Positions 10,380 through 24,221 of a stretch of DNA of 39,980 bases are shown here, one piece after another. Source of the DNA: Escherichia coli (GTDB lineage: Bacteria > Pseudomonadota > Gammaproteobacteria > Enterobacterales > Enterobacteriaceae). The position numbers and the translations under genes are program-made. The number at the start of each line of letters is the position of its first letter. The stretch's first letter is position 1. The stretch lies in NCBI RefSeq assembly GCF_003334405.1, contig NZ_QOWM01000025.1, one strand, 5' to 3'. The notes beneath the pieces were generated by a model. That model saw only the letters and a list, made by a program, of their open reading frames with translations. It did not search any database and was not told the origin of the DNA.

Positions 10380-11027
10380 ATGACAGCAGAATTTATTATA
10401 CGTCTTATACTCGCGGCAATTGCCTGTGGCGCTATTGGCATGGAAAGGCAAATGCGCGGCAAAGGAGCAGGGTTACGCACACATGTATTAATTGGCATGG
10501 GAAGCGCCCTGTTTATGATTGTTTCGAAATATGGTTTTGCTGACGTGCTGTCTTTAGATCACGTCGGACTCGACCCCAGCCGTATTGCTGCTCAGGTGGT
10601 GACGGGCGTCGGGTTTATCGGTGCAGGTAACATTCTCGTTCGTAACCAAAATATTGTAGGTCTGACGACGGCAGCGGATATCTGGGTGACCGCCGCCATA
10701 GGTATGGTTATTGGCAGCGGTATGTACGAACTGGGTATTTATGGTTCAGTGATGACCTTGTTGGTGCTGGAAGTCTTCCATCAATTAACCTTCCGCCTGA
10801 TGAACAAAAATTACCATTTACAGCTGACATTAGTGAACGGTAATACGGTATCAATGCTCGACTGGTTTAAGCAGCAAAAAATAAAAACTGATTTAGTTTC
10901 GTTGCAGGAAAATGAAGATCATGAAGTGGTCGCCATTGATATCCAGCTTCATGCCACAACGTCGATAGAAGACCTGTTGCGATTATTAAAAGGTATGGCA
11001 GGGGTGAAAGGCGTTTCAATTAGCTAA
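10380..11027 (+). CDS. yhiD: MgtC/SapB-family inner membrane protein (215 aa)
   Basis: Start trimmed to MTAEFIIRLILAAIACGAIGMERQ…; hydrophobic N-terminal domain typical of the MgtC family. Confidence 0.85.
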   Translation: MTAEFIIRLILAAIACGAIGMERQMRGKGAGLRTHVLIGMGSALFMIVSKYGFADVLSLDHVGLDPSRIAAQVVTGVGFIGAGNILVRNQNIVGLTTAADIWVTAAIGMVIGSGMYELGIYGSVMTLLVLEVFHQLTFRLMNKNYHLQLTLVNGNTVSMLDWFKQQKIKTDLVSLQENEDHEVVAIDIQLHATTSIEDLLRLLKGMAGVKGVSIS

Positions 11028-11068
11028 TCTGTGTGGCAGCGTAGCCAGACTCACCGTAAGCCTGAAAT

Positions 11069-11599
11069 TCACACCAGATAATCAATATGCTGATGGCGTA
11101 CCAGCTCATTGATCCGCTTAAGATTGAGGATCATCATGATATTGTGTTTATGGCAGTAGAACGTTTTTAGCGATATTTTCAGTTTCTCCAGAATATCTTC
11201 CGTTGTCATTTGATTCGCAATGCAGCTCAGAACCTGATGTTGCTTGCGCGAAAGTGACACAGCCGCTTCAGGCACAGAGCAGTAACTGCCATTGATGAGT
11301 GCGACAAAATCAATGATAGTGATAGTCCGCGGAACAAAGGTCACCGGCACTTTCCCCAGGCAGCGTTTAATATTAAAGGGGGAGAAAATAATGACATGGA
11401 CAGGTTTTAATCGTTCAATTTGAGTGAGAAAATTAGAATGAAATACATTATTCATTAATGTATCAATAATGACGAAGGCATTCTGATGCAACATTACGTC
11501 GATCTCTTCTTCGTTCTGTATATGAACGACATTACCTTTACTCAGAATGTTTTTCATCGCGGTGAAGAACATCGTATCCCTGGTAATTATAAGAAACAT
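11069..11599 (-). CDS. dctR: LuxR-family transcriptional regulator DctR/YhiF (176 aa)
   Basis: 176-aa ORF with C-terminal LuxR-type HTH; position between yhiD and slp. Confidence 0.85.
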   Translation of the reverse strand: MFLIITRDTMFFTAMKNILSKGNVVHIQNEEEIDVMLHQNAFVIIDTLMNNVFHSNFLTQIERLKPVHVIIFSPFNIKRCLGKVPVTFVPRTITIIDFVALINGSYCSVPEAAVSLSRKQHQVLSCIANQMTTEDILEKLKISLKTFYCHKHNIMMILNLKRINELVRHQHIDYLV

Positions 11600-11754
11600 A
11601 ACCGACTCCTGGTGCGGACATTAACTTTATAATCAGTTTGCCAAAGGTAATTAACAGGACAGGGCTTATAATAATAATAGTTAGCTTACTGTGTATTAAT
11701 TTGATGTAATGCATGATGCAGATGCTGAGAAAGCATCTGCATCTTTCGGTGGTG

Positions 11755-12321
11755 TTATTTGACCAGCTCAGGTGTTACCTGACTCACCGCATTGGTGTAG
11801 TAAGGCGCACCCCAGCCCGGTTCCGGCCAGAATGCACCATAGCCGTAATCCCACAGGTTATAGGTGGTATTAACCACTTCTCTCAAATGCCACACCTGGA
11901 TGCCCTGCATATTCACTTCCAGGAAGTTATACGGGACTTTATTGATAAAGCCAGGTTGTTCACCCTGAATGGTGCCGAGGATGGTAACAAAGTGATTACG
12001 ATAGTTCACTGGATCAAGGAAGCCGCTTTGTCTGGCGAGCAGTCGGCCCTGATAGTTGGCTTCAATATCAGGCTTCGCATAGCTATCCAACGGTAATACA
12101 GCGATTTCTAACAACGTATCCGTTTTGCCATTGATAACGTTGATAACCTTCCCACCAAAGCGCGCTTGTTGACCAACATATAACCCCGGCTGGTTATGAA
12201 CAGCAACAAAACTTTTTTGAATATCAGGTTGGTTATTGCCTTTGATATTTTGCGGAATTGAACTACATGCGGCAAGCAAAAATGAAAGGCTGAGGATGAG
12301 TGCACCTTTTGTCATGTTCAT
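11755..12321 (-). CDS. slp: Starvation-inducible outer membrane lipoprotein Slp (188 aa)
   Basis: ORF track start trimmed to MNMTKGALILSLSFLLAACSS… (lipobox LAAC); length 188 aa. Confidence 0.88.
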   Translation of the reverse strand: MNMTKGALILSLSFLLAACSSIPQNIKGNNQPDIQKSFVAVHNQPGLYVGQQARFGGKVINVINGKTDTLLEIAVLPLDSYAKPDIEANYQGRLLARQSGFLDPVNYRNHFVTILGTIQGEQPGFINKVPYNFLEVNMQGIQVWHLREVVNTTYNLWDYGYGAFWPEPGWGAPYYTNAVSQVTPELVK

Positions 12322-12568
12322 GTTACTATCCTTATCAACAAATATTAAAACCATAATAGATATTTCTTTATAGTTTTCATCTGATTCTGAGGTGATATGC
12401 CTGATAGTAACGTAAACCTGTCTGATGTTTATATCCTTTCTGTTTAGGTGAACTCAGTTAATTTTGGGGCGTGACATGAATATCCATCACCCCATAATAT
12501 AGTGCATTGTTTTAAAAGTACATAAAATCTATTTTTATTCAATGATTATAAAGTGCTAATAATCAATA

Positions 12569-13792
12569 TTATGGTATTATATTCTGGTAATGATTTGATA
12601 AGCGAATTCTTTTACCAGATGGTATTTCTATTTCCACCCCATAATTTATATCTTTTTCATTAGGCAGTGGCCTCTTTAAATAAGGCGTGTGTGACATTTT
12701 TTTTGGGTTAAGCGTCTCGTATTGAAATACTTCGAATTGATATTCAGACATTTCTGCCCATGTTTGAATTTTATTGTATCGGGAGAGTGTCGTAAAGGCT
12801 TTAACTTGCTTATAACATTGTTTTTGGAATTCTTGCTGATATTTTAATATGTCATTGTATGAAAGATTGGTTATCCTGGCCTCTAAAAATTTAATTATTG
12901 CCGAAGCAATTTCCGCTTTTGCTCGTAAAAGGTTGTCATTAATGGTTAATAATGTTGAAAATAAACCTTCGATTTGTTTGTCAAGATATTGTCCATCTTT
13001 ATATAATTTGGGGGTAGGGTGTTCTTTATGTAAAAAAATAGTGTCACCTAAATTTGCGTCAGTGAAATTTATATTAAGTAGATCTTCGAAATAAAACCTT
13101 GACAAGGTTAGAACGAACCCGGACAGGTTCTGTCCTGTCATATTGAAATCAATAAAGTTGGTTCCGGCAAAGACTTTCATCCTGTTTTTATTTTCACTGT
13201 GCTCAATATATAACTTCGTCATTTTTTGATACAGGCTTTGAATATCTTTTATATTAGTTGGTAAGTCAGCTCGTTGTTCAGCAATAAAATTAGTATCTGA
13301 AAACATGGTTTGGACACTGAATGTTATGGGTATTCCCTCTTCTACGCTAATTTTAGTTATGATTGCCTTGTCGGGTTTAGGATTAGCGATAACAATGATT
13401 CGACATTCAGCACTTTTGTTTTTTTCATATCTAATGTTATTAATCTGATTAAGTATTGATTGTGTCTGTTGCGTAAGTTGTGTCGAACTTATCGTTTCAA
13501 TGTTAGTAATAAGACTTACAAGTTGAGCCACAACTTTTGAGTAGTCTGCATTTGTATATGTAGTGTTCGTGTGGCACGCATTAATTTGTTGAAGTTGGTG
13601 TTGCGCTAAATCATATTGATCAGAGATATATCCTTCTCCAGAGAATGTGGAATTAATGGGTTGTTGTTCTTCCCAATTATCGCAAGGCCACTTCGGTGTG
13701 TCTGGCGTTTTAGCATTATCGGTATTTGTTGTGCAGTTATAAATATCGCCGTGATATGTATTTATTATACCTGGGGTAAAGTCAATTGACAT
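12569..13792 (-). CDS. yhiS: Uncharacterised AT-rich protein YhiS, intact 407-aa ORF
   Basis: Single uninterrupted 407-aa ORF between slp and arsC; very AT-rich; no IS5 sequence present. Function unknown. Confidence 0.75.
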
Positions 13793-14271
13793 AAAATTCC
13801 TTATTCATCATTTGTTTTATGCTAAGATGTTTAAATTGGATAATTAGAACAGGAATGGATTTTCTTCTACACACAATAAATGTAATGCGTTATATCTTCC
13901 TGATATAATTACCTTTGATTTCCCTTTTATCTCCACCCGGTAATATTTGTGTGTAAAAAAAGGGTAGTGATAGTATCGTAAAGGAAATCGTTAACAACTA
14001 TCAAAATGCGCTCATTTTAAAAAGTTATTATGTTCTCTGATAGTGTGTGAAGTGATTTTTTTTGTGATGTTTTAGATGTGTAATAATAAAATGGGTTAAG
14101 GTATCTTATAATTATTTAATAATTTGTTGTGTAAACCACTGATAAATCATAATCCAGTACGTCTTTAAACTACTGCGCTGTATCGCTGATAACTAAGCAG
14201 CTCACTGATACACCATGCTGGACGCGATAATTGGAATCTCACGCAGGGAGTACTGTGTAAATAGCAAAATC

Positions 14272-14373
14272 GCCTGATGCGCTACGCCTGTCAGGCCTAC
14301 AAATAACATACTATTCATCGAATTTTCATAACTTTGTAGGTCGGATAAGACGCGCCAGCGTCGCATCCGACAT
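14272..14373. repeat. REP/BIME palindromic unit pair (gcctgatgcgctacgcctgtcaggcctac … gtaggtcggataagacgcgccagcgtcgcatccgac)
   Basis: Canonical enterobacterial REP consensus in head-to-head arrangement in the yhiS-arsC gap. Confidence 0.7.
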
Positions 14374-14420
14374 AAATAAAGCGCACTTTTCTAACAACCT
14401 GTGGGGGGGATATCGCCGCT

Positions 14421-14846
14421 TTATTTCAGGCGCTTACCCGCTTCATCAACCACTTTCTCGCCATCTTCCTTGGAGAATGCGCCTTTTTGCGCATCTGGCA
14501 GAATTTCCAGCACCACTTCTGAAGGGCGGCACAGGCGAGTTCCCAGCGGCGTCACCACAATCGGGCGATTAATCAGAATCGGGTGCTGAAGCATAAAGTC
14601 GATTAACCGATCGTCAGTAAATTTATCTTCCGCAAGGCCCAGCTCCTCATACGGTTCGACGTTTTTACGCAGCAGCGCGCGTACGGAAATCCCCATATCG
14701 GCAATGAGTTTGACCAGTTCATCGCGCGTTGGCGGAGTTTCCAGATAATGGATAATGGTCGGTTCTGTGCCGCTGTTGCGGATCATCTCCAGCGTATTAC
14801 GCGACGTGCCGCAGGCCGGGTTGTGATAAATGGTAATGTTGCTCAT
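14421..14846 (-). CDS. arsC: Arsenate reductase, glutaredoxin-coupled (141 aa)
   Basis: 141-aa ORF MSNITIYHNPACGTSRNTLEMIRN… with the catalytic Cys in the HNPACGTSR motif. Confidence 0.92.
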   Translation of the reverse strand: MSNITIYHNPACGTSRNTLEMIRNSGTEPTIIHYLETPPTRDELVKLIADMGISVRALLRKNVEPYEELGLAEDKFTDDRLIDFMLQHPILINRPIVVTPLGTRLCRPSEVVLEILPDAQKGAFSKEDGEKVVDEAGKRLK

Positions 14847-14858
14847 ATCAGTATCTCA

Positions 14859-16148
14859 TTACAAAGTGAAAGAGAGACGTAGCGCCAGCGCAGCCAGCGT
14901 CACAAACAGCACAGGCAGGGTCATGATAATCCCTGTACGGAAGTAATATCCCCAGCTGATAGTCATATTCTTCTGCGAAAGTACGTGCAGCCAGAGTAGC
15001 GTAGCCAGGCTACCAATTGGGGTAATTTTCGGTCCCAAATCGCAGCCAATCACATTGGCATAAACCATCGCTTCTTTGATAACGCCAGATGCCGTGCTGC
15101 CATCAATGGACAACGCGCCAACCAGTACCGTCGGCATATTGTTCATAATAGAAGAGAGGAAGGCGGTGAGGAATCCGGTGCCGAGCGTCGCGGCCCACAG
15201 GCCGTTATCCGCCAGCACGTTGAGTACGCCAGAAAGATATTCCGTTAATCCGGCATTGCGCAGGCCATAAACCACCAGATACATGCCGAGCGAGAAGATG
15301 ACAATCTGCCAGGGGGCACCGCGCAGGACTTTACCCGTATTAATCGCATGACCGCGTTTAGCGACGACAAATAATATCAGCGCGCCCACAGCTGCAATGG
15401 CGCTCACCGGAATGCCGAGCGGTTCCAGGACGAAAAATCCCACCAGCAGAAGCAGTAAAACAACCCAGCCAGTTTTGAACGTAGCAGGATCTTTGATCGC
15501 TTCTGCGGGAGATTTCAGCAGCGCCATATCGTAGTTCTGCGGAATATCTTTGCGAAAATAGAGATGTAACATCACCAGCGTGGCAACAATCGCGGCGATA
15601 TCCACCGGCACCATCACCGAGGCGTATTCGCGAAAGCCGAGGCCAAAGAAATCAGCGGAAACGATATTCACCAGGTTGGAGACAATAAGCGGCAGGCTGG
15701 CGGTATCGGCAATGAATCCGGCCGCCATCACGAACGCCAGCGTAGTGCCTTTACTGAACCCTAAAGCCAGCAGCATGGCGATGACAATCGGTGTCAAAAT
15801 AAGCGCCGCGCCATCATTGGCAAACAGGGCGGCAACGGCAGCACCGAGCAGGACAATCCAGGTAAACAGCAAGCGACCACGACCATTACCCCAGCGTGAG
15901 ACGTGCAGCGCCGCCCATTCAAAAAAGCCGGACTCATCCAGCAGCAGGCTGATGATAATGACGGCGATAAACGCAGCCGTCGCGTTCCAGACGATATTCC
16001 ACACCACCGGAATATCACCCGGATGGACCACGCCCGTAACTAACGCCAGTACTGCGCCGAGCGTTGCACTCCAGCCGATGCCTAAACCTTTCGGCTGCTA
16101 GATAACCAATACGATGGTCAGGACAAAGATAGCGCCTGCCAGTAACAT
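14859..16148 (-). pseudogene. arsB: Arsenite efflux pump ArsB interrupted by an in-frame amber codon at codon 17 (TAG at 16098-16100); remaining frame intact for 412 codons
   Basis: Minus strand from ATG (16148-16146) reads [51 protein letters not shown]… and continues in frame to the stop at 14859; total 429 codons as for full-length ArsB. The ORF track reports only the 390-aa remainder from GTG at 16031. Confidence 0.7.
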
Positions 16149-16201
16149 AATGCCTCCCGGATAAAACACATCTGAAAATTCATATGTGTTTAGCTAAATT
16201 T

Positions 16202-16555
16202 TTAACTGCAAATGTTCTTACTGTCCCCGGAACAGTTTTGTCGAGCCAGGTTGCGGACAATCGCCTGAACCTTTTCCTGTTCACATCGCCAGGCCTCATC
16301 AATAATTTTCGCCGCCCATGCTGGAATATGCGGTGATAAGCGGTAATGAACCCACTTACCTTGCTTGCGGTCCAGCAATAGCCCGCTTTCACGCAGCAAT
16401 GCCAGGTGGCGGGAGATCTTGGGCTGCGACTGGTCGAGAGCAGTGCAGAGATCGCAGACGCATAACTCTCCCAGTTCGCTGAGCAGTAAAACGATGCCCA
16501 GACGGGTTTCATCAGCAAGAATTTTGAACAATTGGATGGGTAACAGAAATGACAT
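16202..16555 (-). CDS. arsR: Arsenic-responsive ArsR/SmtB-family repressor (117 aa)
   Basis: 117-aa ORF with the metalloid-binding ELCVCDLC motif and winged HTH. Confidence 0.92.
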   Translation of the reverse strand: MSFLLPIQLFKILADETRLGIVLLLSELGELCVCDLCTALDQSQPKISRHLALLRESGLLLDRKQGKWVHYRLSPHIPAWAAKIIDEAWRCEQEKVQAIVRNLARQNCSGDSKNICS

Positions 16556-16569
16556 ATTGCGCTCCTGAT

Positions 16570-16625
16570 TGTTGCAGGTAGTGTCTCTCTTCGAAGCGGA
16601 TAAGTCAAAAACATATATGACTTAA
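16570..16625 (-). promoter_or_regulatory. ars promoter/operator (ArsR binding region)
   Basis: Minus-strand sequence …TTAAGTCATATATGTTTTTGACTTATCCGCTTCGAAGAGAGACACTACCTGCAACAATC… closely resembles the ArsR operator/promoter as I recall it from ars operons; contains a TTGACT -35-like hexamer. Confidence 0.55.
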
Positions 16626-16707
16626 CGAATGTGTAAGTGCAGAGGAAGGTAATAGGTGTGAATTTTGAGTTGGCTATTCATTTGAAAGGAGGTCTGAATC
16701 AGGACGT

Positions 16708-16789
16708 AAAAAAACCGACTTTGCGTCGGTTTTTTACTTTCCAGCCCTGAGTTGGTGGCTCTGGCTGGAGTGAGAGAGTTCTTATCTAA
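16708..16789 (-). ncRNA. agrB: AgrB antisense sRNA (repeat copy 1; ends in hairpin ccgacgcaaagtcgg + U-run on the minus strand)
   Basis: About 85-nt unit directly repeated at 16936-17020 (about 90% identity); contains a segment complementary to the dinQ 5' region (copy at 17188-17220); intrinsic terminator at the low-coordinate end. Confidence 0.55.
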
Positions 16790-16935
16790 CAGCTCAATAC
16801 TATTAGCCAGTGGCTAACATTGCAAGAATTAGCGATTTCTTCAGCTGGCGGAGGGAGCACTTCGGTATATATCGCAGTGACGATTTATATACTTTCACTG
16901 GGTCATCGTCATATTAAGCCTTGTCCGAATCCGGA

Positions 16936-17020
16936 TGTAAAAAAACCGACTTTGCGTCGGTTTTTTACTTTCCAGCCCTGAGTTGGTGGCTCTGACTGGA
17001 GTGAGATAGCCATCATCTAA
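16936..17020 (-). ncRNA. agrA: AgrA antisense sRNA (repeat copy 2)
   Basis: Second copy of the about 85-nt unit with the same terminator hairpin (16942-16966); the dinQ-complementary segment is diverged from copy 1 (ctctgactggagtgagatagccatcatctaac). Confidence 0.55.
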
Positions 17021-17083
17021 CGCATCAATGCTAATACCATACTGAAACTATTGCAAGGACGTGCTGGTTTTATAACCTGCATG

Positions 17084-17103
17084 TACTGTATGATTATCCA
17101 GTT
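17084..17103 (+). promoter_or_regulatory. LexA (SOS) box-like site taCTGTatgattatCCAGtt upstream of dinQ
   Basis: CTGT-N8-CCAG spacing close to the LexA consensus CTGT-N8-ACAG; lies about 190 bp upstream of the dinQ start codon. Confidence 0.5.
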
Positions 17104-17294
17104 AGCTCTGAGGCATTTTCACTCTGGCAATGCGCATAAACGCTTTCAAAGTCCTGGTCAGAAGTACGGGTGGTGCCGTTAACTGATGCTCTGGCCGGAG
17201 TGAGAGAGTTCTTATCTAACAATGAGACATGCGCCGTGACAGGCAGTGGATGAGTAAGCGGATGCATTCTCACTCCATCGCATGGAGAAAACGG

Positions 17295-17378
17295 GTGATT
17301 GATAAAGCAATCATCGTTCTAGGGGCGTTAATTGCGCTGCTGGAACTGATCCGCTTTCTGCTTCAGCTTCTGAACTGA
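17295..17378 (+). CDS. dinQ: DinQ small hydrophobic toxin peptide (27 aa, GTG start): MIDKAIIVLGALIALLELIRFLLQLLN
   Basis: Short ORF encoding a single-TM peptide in the arsR-gor gap, preceded by the agr-complementary segment at 17188-17220; the peptide matches my memory of DinQ. Confidence 0.6.
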   Translation: MIDKAIIVLGALIALLELIRFLLQLLN

Positions 17379-17394
17379 TAGCGGAAACGTAATT

Positions 17395-17425
17395 AAGGGC
17401 TAAGAGCACACTACTCTTAGCCCTT
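17395..17425. terminator. Hairpin between convergent dinQ and gor (aagggctaagag / ctcttagccctt)
   Basis: 12-bp perfect stem with 7-nt loop between the dinQ stop (17378) and gor stop (17432); U-tracts are weak. Confidence 0.4.
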
Positions 17426-17431
17426 TAACAT

Positions 17432-18784
17432 TTAACGCATTGTCACGAACTCTTCTGCCGCCGTTGGGTGAATGGCGACGGTATTGTCGAAGTCTTTTTT
17501 GGTTGCCCCCATCTTCAGCGCCACCGCGAAGCCCTGCAACATTTCGTCCATACCAAAGCCAATGCCGTGAATACCGACAATCTTCTCTTCCGATCCAACG
17601 CACACCAGCTTCATGCGGCACGGCTGGCGGTGAGTGGTGACGGCGGTATACATCGCGGTGAAAGAGGATTTATACACTTTCACCTGATCGTCGCCATACT
17701 GCTCGCGCGCCTGCGGTTCCGTTAAACCAACAGTACCAATCGGCGGATGGCTGAAGACCACGGTCGGAATGTTGCTGTAATCCAGATGCTCATCCGGCTT
17801 GTTATTAAACAGGCGTTCAGAGAGACGGCGACCCGCTGCAACTGCCACCGGTGTCAGCTCCACTGCACCCGTGTTATCGCCCACCGCGTAAATACCTTCA
17901 ATATTGGTGTTTTGATATTTATCGACGACGATATAGCCTTTTTCGTTAGTTTTAACGCCAGCGGCTTCCAGGTTGATGTTGTCATTGGCAGGCTCGCGAC
18001 CAATCGCCCAAATCAGGCAATCCACCGTTTCACTGCGACCATCTTCCAGCTCCAGCGTCAGGCTACCATCGGCATTTTTCACTACCGCTTTCGGGATGGC
18101 GTTGGTGTGCAGCTGCGGGCCTTCGGCGTTCATCACTTCGACCAGCGTTTCGGAAATCATCGGGTCGAAGCTGCGCAGCGGCGCATGTTTACGCACAAAC
18201 AGATGCGTTTTCGCGCCGAGGCCGTTAATCACGCCCGCCAGCTCAACGGCGATGTAACCCGCGCCAACAACCGCCACGCGCTCTGGCAAAGCAGGAAGGG
18301 CGAAGAAGCCATCAGAATCAATACCGTATTCCACGCCCGGAATATCCGGGTGGCTCGGACGACCGCCTGTGGCGATCAGAATATGATCGGCCGTGATGGT
18401 TTCGCCGTTTACCTCCAGCGTTTTGGCATCAACGAAGCGGGCAAAGCCTTTGATTACATCAACGTTATTTTTACCGAGCACGTTTTCATAGGAAGTATGA
18501 ATACGGTCGATATAGGCGGTACGGCTGGCGATCAACGTTTCCCAGTTGAATTTATTGATAGTGGTATCAAAACCATAATCCGGGCCGTACATATGGATCG
18601 CTTCACGGATTTGCGCCGCGTGCCACATCACTTTTTTCGGCACACAGCCAACATTTACGCAGGTGCCGCCCAGCTCTTTGGCTTCAATCAGCGCACATTT
18701 CTGGCCGTACATAGCCGCGCGGTTGATGGAGGCGATACCGCCGCTGCCGCCGCCGATGGCGATGTAATCATAGTGTTTAGTCAT
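17432..18784 (-). CDS. gor: Glutathione reductase (450 aa)
   Basis: 450-aa ORF with FAD-binding GxGxxG (IGGGSGG) and redox-active disulfide motif [13 protein letters not shown]. Confidence 0.93.
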
Positions 18785-22751: not shown

Positions 22752-24221
22752 TTAATGGCTTTCCGGCGTCGCAATCATGCGTTTCAGCCACGGCACCATC
22801 AACAGCATCACTACTGCAACGCCCAGCGTGACCAGACCAATCTTACCAAACACGTTGGTATAGACGGGCAACGTCTCAAGCGGATCGGTAATGTTGTCCG
22901 GCACCGCGGTAAATGTTGCCACATAGCCGCCCAGCAAGAACGCGGCAGCCTGCGTCAGGAACCACATCCCGAGAATAAAGCCCATCAAATGCTGCGGCAC
23001 CAGGGCAGCAATCATCGCCAGGCCAAGGGCGCTAATAAACAGTTCACCTAAGCTCTGGAATAAGTACACCAGCACGATAAACCATGGCGATGTCAGCCCT
23101 TGTGCATCCGCAAACCACATTCCCGCAGCTGCCGCCGTCAAAAAGCCCAGTGAGCACATAAACATGCCGAGAGTAAATTTCATCGGCATCGAGAGGTCTT
23201 TGCCTTTGTTACCCAGATGCGTGTAAATGCCTGCCAGTATTGGGCTGGCGAGTACCACCCAGAACGGGTTAAGCGCCTGGAAGCTGACCGGGTTGATGGA
23301 AAAACCGAGAATTTCATGATGCACGTTGTTGATGGCAAAGAAGTTCAGCGATGTTGGCATCTGGGCGTAGAGAATGTAAAACACCACCGCTTCGAGCATC
23401 AGGACAAAGGCGACAAACATTTTATTGCGCCCGGTTTTATCCAGCTTGAATGCCTGACGAAAGAAGATGATGGTGACGACGATGGAGAGAACAATCAGCA
23501 CCAGATTGGCGACTTCTACGTTGTGCATCAGCCATGCGCATACGAAGATCATCACCACGCTGCCAAGTAACACGTACAACAGTTTGCTGAAGCTCATTGG
23601 CCGGAAGTCGGGTTCAGAACCAATGTCTTTCACCATTCCACGACAGGCGATGTAAACCAGTAATGCGATAATTAACCCCGCCCCGCACAGGTTGTAGGTG
23701 ACTGAATAACCGAATCTATCAGCGATCACAGGGGCCAGCGATAACGCTATCAACGAGCCGATGTTGATCGACATATAGAACAGGGTGAATGCGCCATCAA
23801 GCCGCGGATCTTTCGGCGGATAGCACTTCGAAAGCAAGCTGGCTGGGTTAGCTTTAAACAGGCCGTTACCGACAGCGATAGTCCCCAGGGCGATGAAAAT
23901 CAGGTCAGGCTTAAGTAGCGACATGCCGGTCATGAAGTAGCCAATCGCCAGCACAAGTGCTCCAAGAACAATGGTGCGTTTGGTCCCCAGCAGGTGGTCG
24001 CCGACATAGCCGCCAATGGAAATGAGGCCATAGACCAGCGCAGCAAAAGCACCAAAAGTGACAAAAGCCTGCTCTTGCGAGAATCCAAGCTGTTTAACGA
24101 AGAAAACCGCCAGTACGCCCTGCACGCCGTAGTAGCCGAATCGCTCCCATAACTCGACAAAAAAGATCATGAAAAATGGGCGAGGTTGCTGCAGCATCCC
24201 CATGGGTGTTGTTGTATTCAT
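22752..24221 (-). CDS. dtpB: Proton-dependent di-/tripeptide permease, POT/PTR2 family (489 aa)
   Basis: 489-aa polytopic membrane ORF with POT-family N-terminal region (…[27 protein letters not shown]…). Confidence 0.9.

What the first reader, a model, noticed from the sequence alone, without database searches (positions are those of the whole stretch)
16570..16625. Intact ArsR operator/promoter upstream of a defective arsB
The ars control region closely matches the ArsR operator as I recall it, and arsR itself is intact with its CVCDLC sensor motif. The regulatory circuit is therefore preserved even though the pump gene carries a nonsense codon. That pattern fits a recent loss of arsB function rather than long-term decay of the operon.
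Basis: partly seen in the sequence, partly recalled or inferred. Interest (0 to 1): 0.25.

Follow-up and report, generated by a model that had tools for sequence, protein, structure and literature searches.

The report
Known ArsR operator; arsB amber mutation
This is the ordinary, well-studied arsenic-sensing switch of the E. coli chromosome, unchanged, sitting in front of an arsenite pump gene that a small clone of isolates has recently lost through a single stop-codon mutation.

Summary
Window 16634..16601 (- strand) matches the footprinted E. coli chromosomal ArsR binding sequence 34/34. It is an imperfect 12-2-12 dyad overlapping the -35 TTGACT of the arsRBC promoter. Window 14400-17433 differs from K-12 MG1655 at two bases only, neither in the control region or arsR. 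ArsR (117 aa, CVCDLC at 32-37) is identical to the K-12 protein.

arsB carries TGG->TAG at codon 17 (window 16100-16098) and no other change from the common intact allele. That allele is absent from the 4310 complete E. coli genomes that match this stretch of arsB. It is not a sequencing error. The draft assembly GCA_024592625.1 has the same TAG and three linked SNPs, and GCA_012802165.1 shares those three SNPs but could not be checked for the TAG. One marker, MdtF R530L, occurs on only nine contigs of the large public collection.

Public assemblies also hold at least eight other independent lesions in arsB codons 1-39, all with an identical control region. A strain lacking arsR-arsB has an orphan operator with five substitutions, which shows what long-term decay looks like.

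This is known biology and of low interest.

The parts
16601..16634 (-). ArsR operator: the footprinted ArsR binding sequence ACACATTCGTTAAGTCATATATGTTTTTGACTTA.
   Evidence: 34/34 match to the sequence quoted from Xu et al. 1996 in PMC6555750. The 29-nt short version is unique in the window.
16600..16625 (-). Imperfect 12-2-12 inverted repeat TTAAGTCATATA-TG-TTTTTGACTTAT, the presumed seat of one ArsR dimer.
   Evidence: 9 of 12 positions are symmetric, the best dyad in the intergenic region. The perfect 7-nt arms are at 16618-16624 and 16601-16607.
16603..16608 (-). -35 hexamer TTGACT of the arsRBC promoter, inside the right arm of the dyad.
   Evidence: Read from the sequence. The assignment is inferred from the consensus (5 of 6) and its position.
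16580..16585 (-). Candidate -10 hexamer GACACT, 17 nt after the -35.
   Evidence: Read from the sequence. It matches only 3 of 6 positions, so the consensus scan did not report it. This is an inference.
16562..16566 (-). Shine-Dalgarno AGGAG of arsR.
   Evidence: Read from the sequence. This is an inference.
16202..16555 (-). arsR, intact: 117 aa with the As(III) site Cys32-Val-Cys34-Asp-Leu-Cys37.
   Evidence: ORF listed. No nucleotide difference from K-12 or IAL7250. NCBIfam PRK10141 scores 233 bits against a cut-off of 97.
14859..16148 (-). arsB, 429 codons with a premature stop at codon 17; otherwise identical to the intact allele WP_000922639.1.
   Evidence: Residues 40-429 match the NCBIfam ArsB model at profile positions 42-428, 665 bits.
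16098..16100 (-). Amber codon TAG replacing Trp17 TGG; the changed base is window 16099.
   Evidence: Absent from 4310 complete genomes. Present in GCA_024592625.1.
14421..14846 (-). arsC, intact glutaredoxin-dependent arsenate reductase (141 aa).
   Evidence: Identical to WP_000065769.1. NCBIfam PRK10026 scores 305 bits against a cut-off of 242.
16706..16789 (-). agrB small RNA, the upstream neighbour on the same strand. Its terminator ends about 70 nt before the operator.
   Evidence: Rfam RF02891, 108 bits. K-12 annotates it at the matching position.

Best explanation
The region is the canonical control region of the E. coli chromosomal arsRBC operon, unchanged.

**Mechanism, from established knowledge of this system (not measured here).**
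- An ArsR homodimer binds the imperfect 12-2-12 dyad at 16625..16600. The dyad overlaps the -35 hexamer, so bound ArsR keeps RNA polymerase off the promoter.
- As(III) or Sb(III) binds Cys32, Cys34 and Cys37 of ArsR. The repressor then leaves the DNA and arsR-arsB-arsC are transcribed as one autoregulated unit.

**What is different in this clone.** Translation of arsB stops at codon 17 because of a single G->A transition (TGG->TAG), so no ArsB antiporter is made.

**Predicted consequences (inferred).**
- Sensing and induction still work, and should respond at lower external arsenite because As(III) is no longer exported.
- ArsC still reduces arsenate to arsenite, so the cell should be hypersensitive to both.
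- arsC expression may be lowered by polarity, because about 1.2 kb of arsB message is left untranslated.

**Status of the mutation.** It is real, recent and confined to a small clone. It is neither a sequencing error nor part of a decaying operon.
For: - **Operator.** 34/34 identity with the footprinted site, and the dyad geometry fits.
- **Identity with K-12.** Window 14400-17433 differs from K-12 MG1655 at only 16099 and 14757. Experimental work on the K-12 promoter and ArsR therefore applies directly (PMC5116461; PMC3918153; PMC4287715).
- **Genes.** ArsR and ArsC are identical to the common intact proteins and pass the NCBIfam cut-offs.
- **The lesion.** arsB has a single lesion, W17*.
- **Distribution.** 0 of 4310 complete genomes carry the TAG 59-mer, and metagenome contigs hold no exact match.
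- **Clone.** The draft assemblies GCA_012802165.1 and GCA_024592625.1 are 100% identical to window 1-15868, including the three other rare SNPs. GCA_024592625.1 also carries the TAG. MdtF R530L is on only 9 contigs of the collection.
Against: - No expression or resistance data exist for this clone.
- The -10 hexamer and the transcription start are inferred.
- The TAG was verified directly in only one other assembly of the clone. For GCA_012802165.1 the fetched DNA stops 231 nt short of the codon.
- An amber suppressor elsewhere in the genome cannot be excluded from this window.
Confidence: 0.88

Rival explanations
1. The TAG is a sequencing or assembly error, and arsB is really intact.
For: The allele is absent from all 4310 complete genomes that match this stretch and from metagenome contigs.
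Against: The same TAG lies on contig JANJGP010000029.1 of GCA_024592625.1, a contig seen in two samples. That assembly shares the window's three other rare SNPs. A random error would not recur on the same rare haplotype.
Confidence: 0.03
2. arsB still yields an active pump, either by amber suppression or readthrough, or by re-initiation downstream of the stop.
For: The remaining 412 codons are undamaged. Gene callers report a 390-aa product starting at GTG codon 40.
Against: - The first in-frame start after the stop is GTG at codon 40, with no clear Shine-Dalgarno in the 20 nt before it.
- Such a product would lack the first 39 residues, which NCBIfam aligns to profile positions 1-41. By established ArsB topology these hold the first membrane helix.
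- Natural isolates do not normally carry amber suppressors.
Confidence: 0.05
3. The operon is in long-term decay, and the nonsense codon is one of several old lesions.
For: E. coli does lose this operon. About 24% of complete genomes cover less than 80% of it. In N17 arsB and arsR are deleted.
Against: - The operon has no second lesion, and arsR, arsC and the control region are identical to intact alleles.
- The mutation is confined to a rare clone.
- The decayed comparator N17 has 5 of 34 operator changes, and this window has none.
Confidence: 0.02
4. Loss of arsB is favoured by selection in some niches, so the lesion recurs while the sensor and arsC are kept. This adds to the main explanation rather than replacing it.
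For: - Ten places read in public assemblies hold at least eight other distinct lesions in arsB codons 1-39.
- The identical TGG->TAG occurs on a haplotype 12-13 nt different across the operon.
- All of them keep the control region identical.
Against: - The collection holds a vast number of E. coli assemblies, so a few dozen carriers fit ordinary mutation-selection balance.
- Trp codons are the expected targets for one-step nonsense transitions.
- No baseline rate for comparable genes was computed.
Confidence: 0.08

Closest known systems
Operator/promoter of the chromosomal arsRBC operon of E. coli K-12 (Xu, Shi & Rosen 1996; Carlin et al. 1995).
   Same: The sequence is identical across the whole control region and arsR. 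Gene order and neighbours are the same: agrB, then arsR-arsB-arsC.
   Different: arsB has an amber codon at position 17. Downstream, yhiS is intact here, whereas K-12 has an IS5 inserted in it.
ars operator of plasmid R773/R46-type arsRDABC operons (Wu & Rosen 1993).
   Same: The repressor is of the same kind, about 74-75% identical and with the same Cys site. The site lies at or overlapping the -35. An IncN plasmid copy shows ACACATATGATTTTGACTT aligned with the chromosomal GTCATATATGTTTTTGACTT.
   Different: The operator sequence differs, and the exact 34-mer is not found within 6 mismatches. The plasmid operons add arsD and arsA.
Engineered arsenic-hypersensitive E. coli such as AW3110 (deletion of the ars operon), used as a biosensor host.
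   Same: Both lack arsenite efflux through ArsB. Such hosts are arsenic-hypersensitive (PMC4287715).
   Different: AW3110 lacks arsR and arsC as well. Here the sensor, the promoter and the reductase remain in place, and the lesion is a natural point mutation.
E. coli lineages with arsR-arsB deleted (example: strain N17, which carries the chu genes).
   Same: Both have lost the pump at the same chromosomal locus.
   Different: N17 lacks window 14908-16593, so the regulator is gone too. Its operator remnant is fused next to the last ~50 nt of arsB followed by arsC and has 5 of 34 changes. This is an older loss of a different kind.

Membership tests
E. coli chromosomal ArsR operator (ArsR binding site) | Sequence of the footprinted ArsR site ACACATTCGTTAAGTCATATATGTTTTTGACTTA. 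| tested here: met
   34/34 at window 16634..16601.
E. coli chromosomal ArsR operator (ArsR binding site) | Imperfect 12-2-12 inverted repeat typical of ArsR/SmtB operators. | tested here: met
   9 of 12 positions symmetric at 16625..16600, the top dyad in the intergenic region; 4% of shuffles do as well.
E. coli chromosomal ArsR operator (ArsR binding site) | Lies at the -35 of the promoter that drives arsR as the first gene of arsRBC. | tested here: met
   TTGACT at 16608-16603 lies within the right arm, 46 nt upstream of the arsR ATG. The gene order arsR-arsB-arsC is shown.
E. coli chromosomal ArsR operator (ArsR binding site) | ArsR binds the site and is released by As(III)/Sb(III). | not testable with these tools
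   Inferred from 100% identity with the K-12 region used in binding and reporter studies (PMC6555750, PMC5116461).
ArsR with the type 1 As(III) site (ArsR/SmtB family) | Winged-helix ArsR/SmtB fold above the curated family threshold. | tested here: met
   NCBIfam NF007528 scores 233 bits against a cut-off of 97; NF033788 scores 96 bits against 55.
ArsR with the type 1 As(III) site (ArsR/SmtB family) | Cys32-Val-Cys34-Asp-Leu-Cys37 at the start of the DNA-binding helix. | tested here: met
   ELCVCDLCTAL is present in the translation. The motif is defined in PMC6555750.
Functional ArsB arsenite/antimonite:H+ antiporter | Uninterrupted reading frame of about 429 codons. | tested here: not met
   Stop at codon 17. 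Only residues 40-429 align to the ArsB model, at profile positions 42-428.
Glutaredoxin-dependent arsenate reductase ArsC | Full-length match above the curated threshold. | tested here: met
   NF007456 scores 305 bits against a cut-off of 242, and the protein is identical to WP_000065769.1.

The most novel reading that the evidence does not exclude
arsB inactivation, with ArsR, its operator and arsC all retained, may be a recurrent and selected state in some E. coli niches rather than neutral noise. Two observations leave this open. At least nine independent lesions hit codons 1-39. The identical W17 amber arose on two different haplotypes.
Probability: 0.08. Interest if true: 0.35.

Novelty: already known. 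Interest (0 to 1): 0.08.

Why it matters
It matters little beyond annotation.

- **Annotation.** arsB in this clone should be marked as a pseudogene caused by one amber codon.
- **Phenotype.** The isolates are predicted to be hypersensitive to arsenite and arsenate, while still switching on the ars promoter.
- **Practical use.** Such a strain would behave as a natural high-sensitivity arsenic reporter host.
- **Typing.** The four linked SNPs are arsB W17*, MdtF R530L, the first base of GadY and YhiS-like T298A. Together they mark a small clone.

Tried and rejected
- **Motif recalled from memory.** TCAT-N7-TTTG matches the site but occurs as often as chance predicts (3 found, 2.6 expected). I did not use it as evidence.
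- **Literature searches.** Searches for that motif and for the operator sequence found no usable text. The primary papers were not held. The site sequence came instead from PMC6555750, which quotes Xu et al. 1996.
- **Promoter scan.** The consensus scan did not report the ars promoter, because the -10 matches only 3 of 6 positions. The -10 remains an inference.
- **Concatenated query.** One query joining three 59-mers gave muddled alignments across the joins. Separate queries were needed.
- **First impression that the TAG was unique.** Searches suggested the TAG was unique, and so possibly an error. Exact-protein look-ups in draft and read-level assemblies overturned this.
- **Plasmid upstream regions.** The IncN copy shares a CATATG core next to the -35 and two others hold CATATG-containing dyads, but they are too divergent for a clean footprint.
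- **Codon 17 as a hotspot.** I considered this and did not claim it. Trp codons are simply the one-step targets for nonsense transitions.

Full report
**Context.** The window is a stretch of E. coli chromosome running from gadA/gadX to yhhI. It is collinear with strain IAL7250 and differs from it at 4 of 39,980 bases. The ars operon lies on the - strand:

| Gene | Window coordinates |
|---|---|
| arsR | 16555..16202 |
| arsB | 16148..14859 |
| arsC | 14846..14421 |

Upstream on the same strand are the small RNAs agrB (16789..16706) and agrA (17020..16937), followed by dinQ and gor.

**The observation.** PMC6555750, quoting Xu, Shi & Rosen 1996, gives the chromosomal ArsR binding sequence as ACACATTCGTTAAGTCATATATGTTTTTGACTTA.

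- The sequence is present once, at 16634..16601 on the - strand, with no mismatch.
- It contains the imperfect 12-2-12 dyad TTAAGTCATATA-TG-TTTTTGACTTAT at 16625..16600, with 9 of 12 symmetric positions. This is the best dyad in the intergenic region, and 4% of shuffles match it.
- Its perfect 7-nt arms were found independently.
- The right arm holds a -35 hexamer, TTGACT. Seventeen bases further on is a weak -10 candidate, GACACT. An AGGAG ribosome-binding site follows, then the arsR ATG. The hexamers are my inference, and the consensus scan did not flag them.

**Intactness.** Window 14400-17433 differs from K-12 MG1655 at only two bases, 16099 in arsB and 14757 in arsC.

- The control region and arsR are the K-12 sequence, so published work on that promoter and repressor applies directly (PMC5116461, PMC3918153, PMC4287715).
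- ArsR has CVCDLC at residues 32-37 and passes the NCBIfam cut-off. ArsC does as well.
- In all 20 arsR-bearing E. coli loci I fetched, the 155 nt from the end of agrB to the arsR ATG are identical. Some of these loci are 2-3% divergent in the flanking DNA.

**The arsB lesion.** Codon 17 is TAG instead of TGG, and this is the only difference from the intact protein WP_000922639.1.

- A 59-mer centred on the codon matched 4310 complete genomes, none of them exactly. No metagenome contig held it. The best full-operon hits, including E. coli C and ML35, are one mismatch away and are annotated with an intact arsB.
- At that point an error looked possible, especially as the window had three other rare SNPs, all within the first 16.1 kb.
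- Exact-protein look-ups in draft and read-level assemblies settled it:
  - The MdtF R530L variant is on nine contigs, all 10-50 kb long.
  - GCA_012802165.1 and GCA_024592625.1 are 100% identical to window 1-15868, including those SNPs.
  - A contig of GCA_024592625.1, seen in two samples, carries the same TAG.

The mutation is therefore real and marks a small clone. The window is probably a whole short-read contig of a member of that clone, because it begins in gadA and ends in an ISEc1 copy.

**Recent loss or decay.** There is one lesion only, on a haplotype whose intact form is widespread, and it is confined to a rare clone. That is the signature of a recent event.

Strain N17 gives the contrast. 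It lacks window 14908-16593, which covers arsB and arsR. It keeps only arsC next to an orphan operator that has 5 of 34 substitutions. About 24% of complete genomes cover less than 80% of the operon.

**Mechanism.** The following is established for this system (PMC4287715, PMC3918153, PMC6555750):

- An ArsR dimer binds the dyad and blocks the promoter.
- As(III) or Sb(III) binds the three cysteines and releases the repressor.
- The operon, including arsR itself, is then transcribed.

The following is inferred for this clone:

- Sensing and autoregulation are unchanged.
- No ArsB is made, so cytoplasmic As(III) stays high. Induction should need less external arsenite, and the cell should be hypersensitive to arsenite and arsenate.
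- arsC may suffer polarity.
- Rescue by re-initiation is unlikely. The first in-frame start after the stop is GTG at codon 40, without a clear ribosome-binding site, and the product would lack the N-terminal segment.

**A side result.** The 390-aa truncated product is on record in 46 blocks of the public collection. The ten places read show at least eight other lesions in codons 1-39:

| Lesion | Locus |
|---|---|
| W17* TAG, on a haplotype 12-13 nt different across the operon | L014, L020 |
| W17* TGA | L017 |
| 1-nt deletion in codon 17 | L015 (contig seen in five samples) |
| L22* | L021 |
| W26* TGA | L012 |
| 13-nt deletion | L013 |
| 1-nt insertion | L018 |
| 15-nt duplication | L019 |
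| Several deletions | L016 |

All of these keep the control region identical. Given the size of the collection this fits ordinary mutation-selection balance. I did not test for selection.

**Verdict.** This is the known operator, with the known repressor, and the pump gene has a genuine, recent, clone-restricted amber mutation. The finding is ordinary and of low interest.

Noticed in passing
window 1421 (GadY at 1421..1308, - strand): One of the clone's marker SNPs (G->T on the + strand) falls on the first base of the GadY small RNA as placed by Rfam. The same base is found in only one complete genome, the distant strain N17.
   Followed up: partly
window 4280 (mdtF, - strand, codon 530): MdtF carries R530L (CGC->CTC). 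This is absent from all 5047 complete genomes that match the site and present on nine draft contigs of the same clone.
   Followed up: partly
window 12901 (yhiS-like gene 12569..13792, - strand): T298A in the 407-aa YhiS-like protein. The exact protein is widespread (88 blocks of the collection) and mostly occurs with an intact arsB, on a different haplotype background. yhiS is intact here, whereas K-12 has an IS5 in it.
   Followed up: partly
L011 (strain N17) 23019-23022, equivalent to window 14908-16593: In this chu-positive strain arsB and arsR are deleted. The ars operator and -35 remnant (5 of 34 changes) are left directly upstream of the last ~50 nt of arsB followed by arsC. One agr copy is also missing. 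About 24% of complete E. coli genomes cover less than 80% of the operon.
   Followed up: partly
L012-L021 (public draft and read-level assemblies): At least eight further independent disabling mutations occur in arsB codons 1-39. They include the identical W17 amber on another haplotype and three different lesions at codon 17. All have an intact arsR and operator.
   Followed up: partly
L012, L014, L015, L017-L020, downstream of arsC: In these lineages arsC is followed by a second small ArsR-like HTH protein (98 aa) and an ArsP-type permease (333 aa) instead of the yhiS-like gene.
   Followed up: no
window 16706-16789 and 16937-17020 (- strand); 17295-17378 (+ strand): The agrB and agrA small RNAs form a direct repeat, next to the dinQ toxin gene. 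A LexA-box-like CTG-N10-CAG lies at 17086-17101. The draft contig L027 appears to hold a single agr copy, perhaps through assembly collapse.
   Followed up: no
window 1-102 and 39570-39980: The window starts inside gadA, which has a near-identical paralogue gadB, and ends inside an ISEc1 transposase gene (yhhI). Related draft contigs are 40.1-40.8 kb long. The window therefore looks like a complete short-read contig bounded by repeats.
   Followed up: no
window 16180-16614 (- strand): A 144-aa ORF starts at an ATG inside the operator and overlaps arsR in another frame. A primer in PMC5116461 labelled as the arsR forward primer anneals at the start of this ORF rather than at the true arsR ATG (16555). 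The ORF is probably spurious.
   Followed up: no
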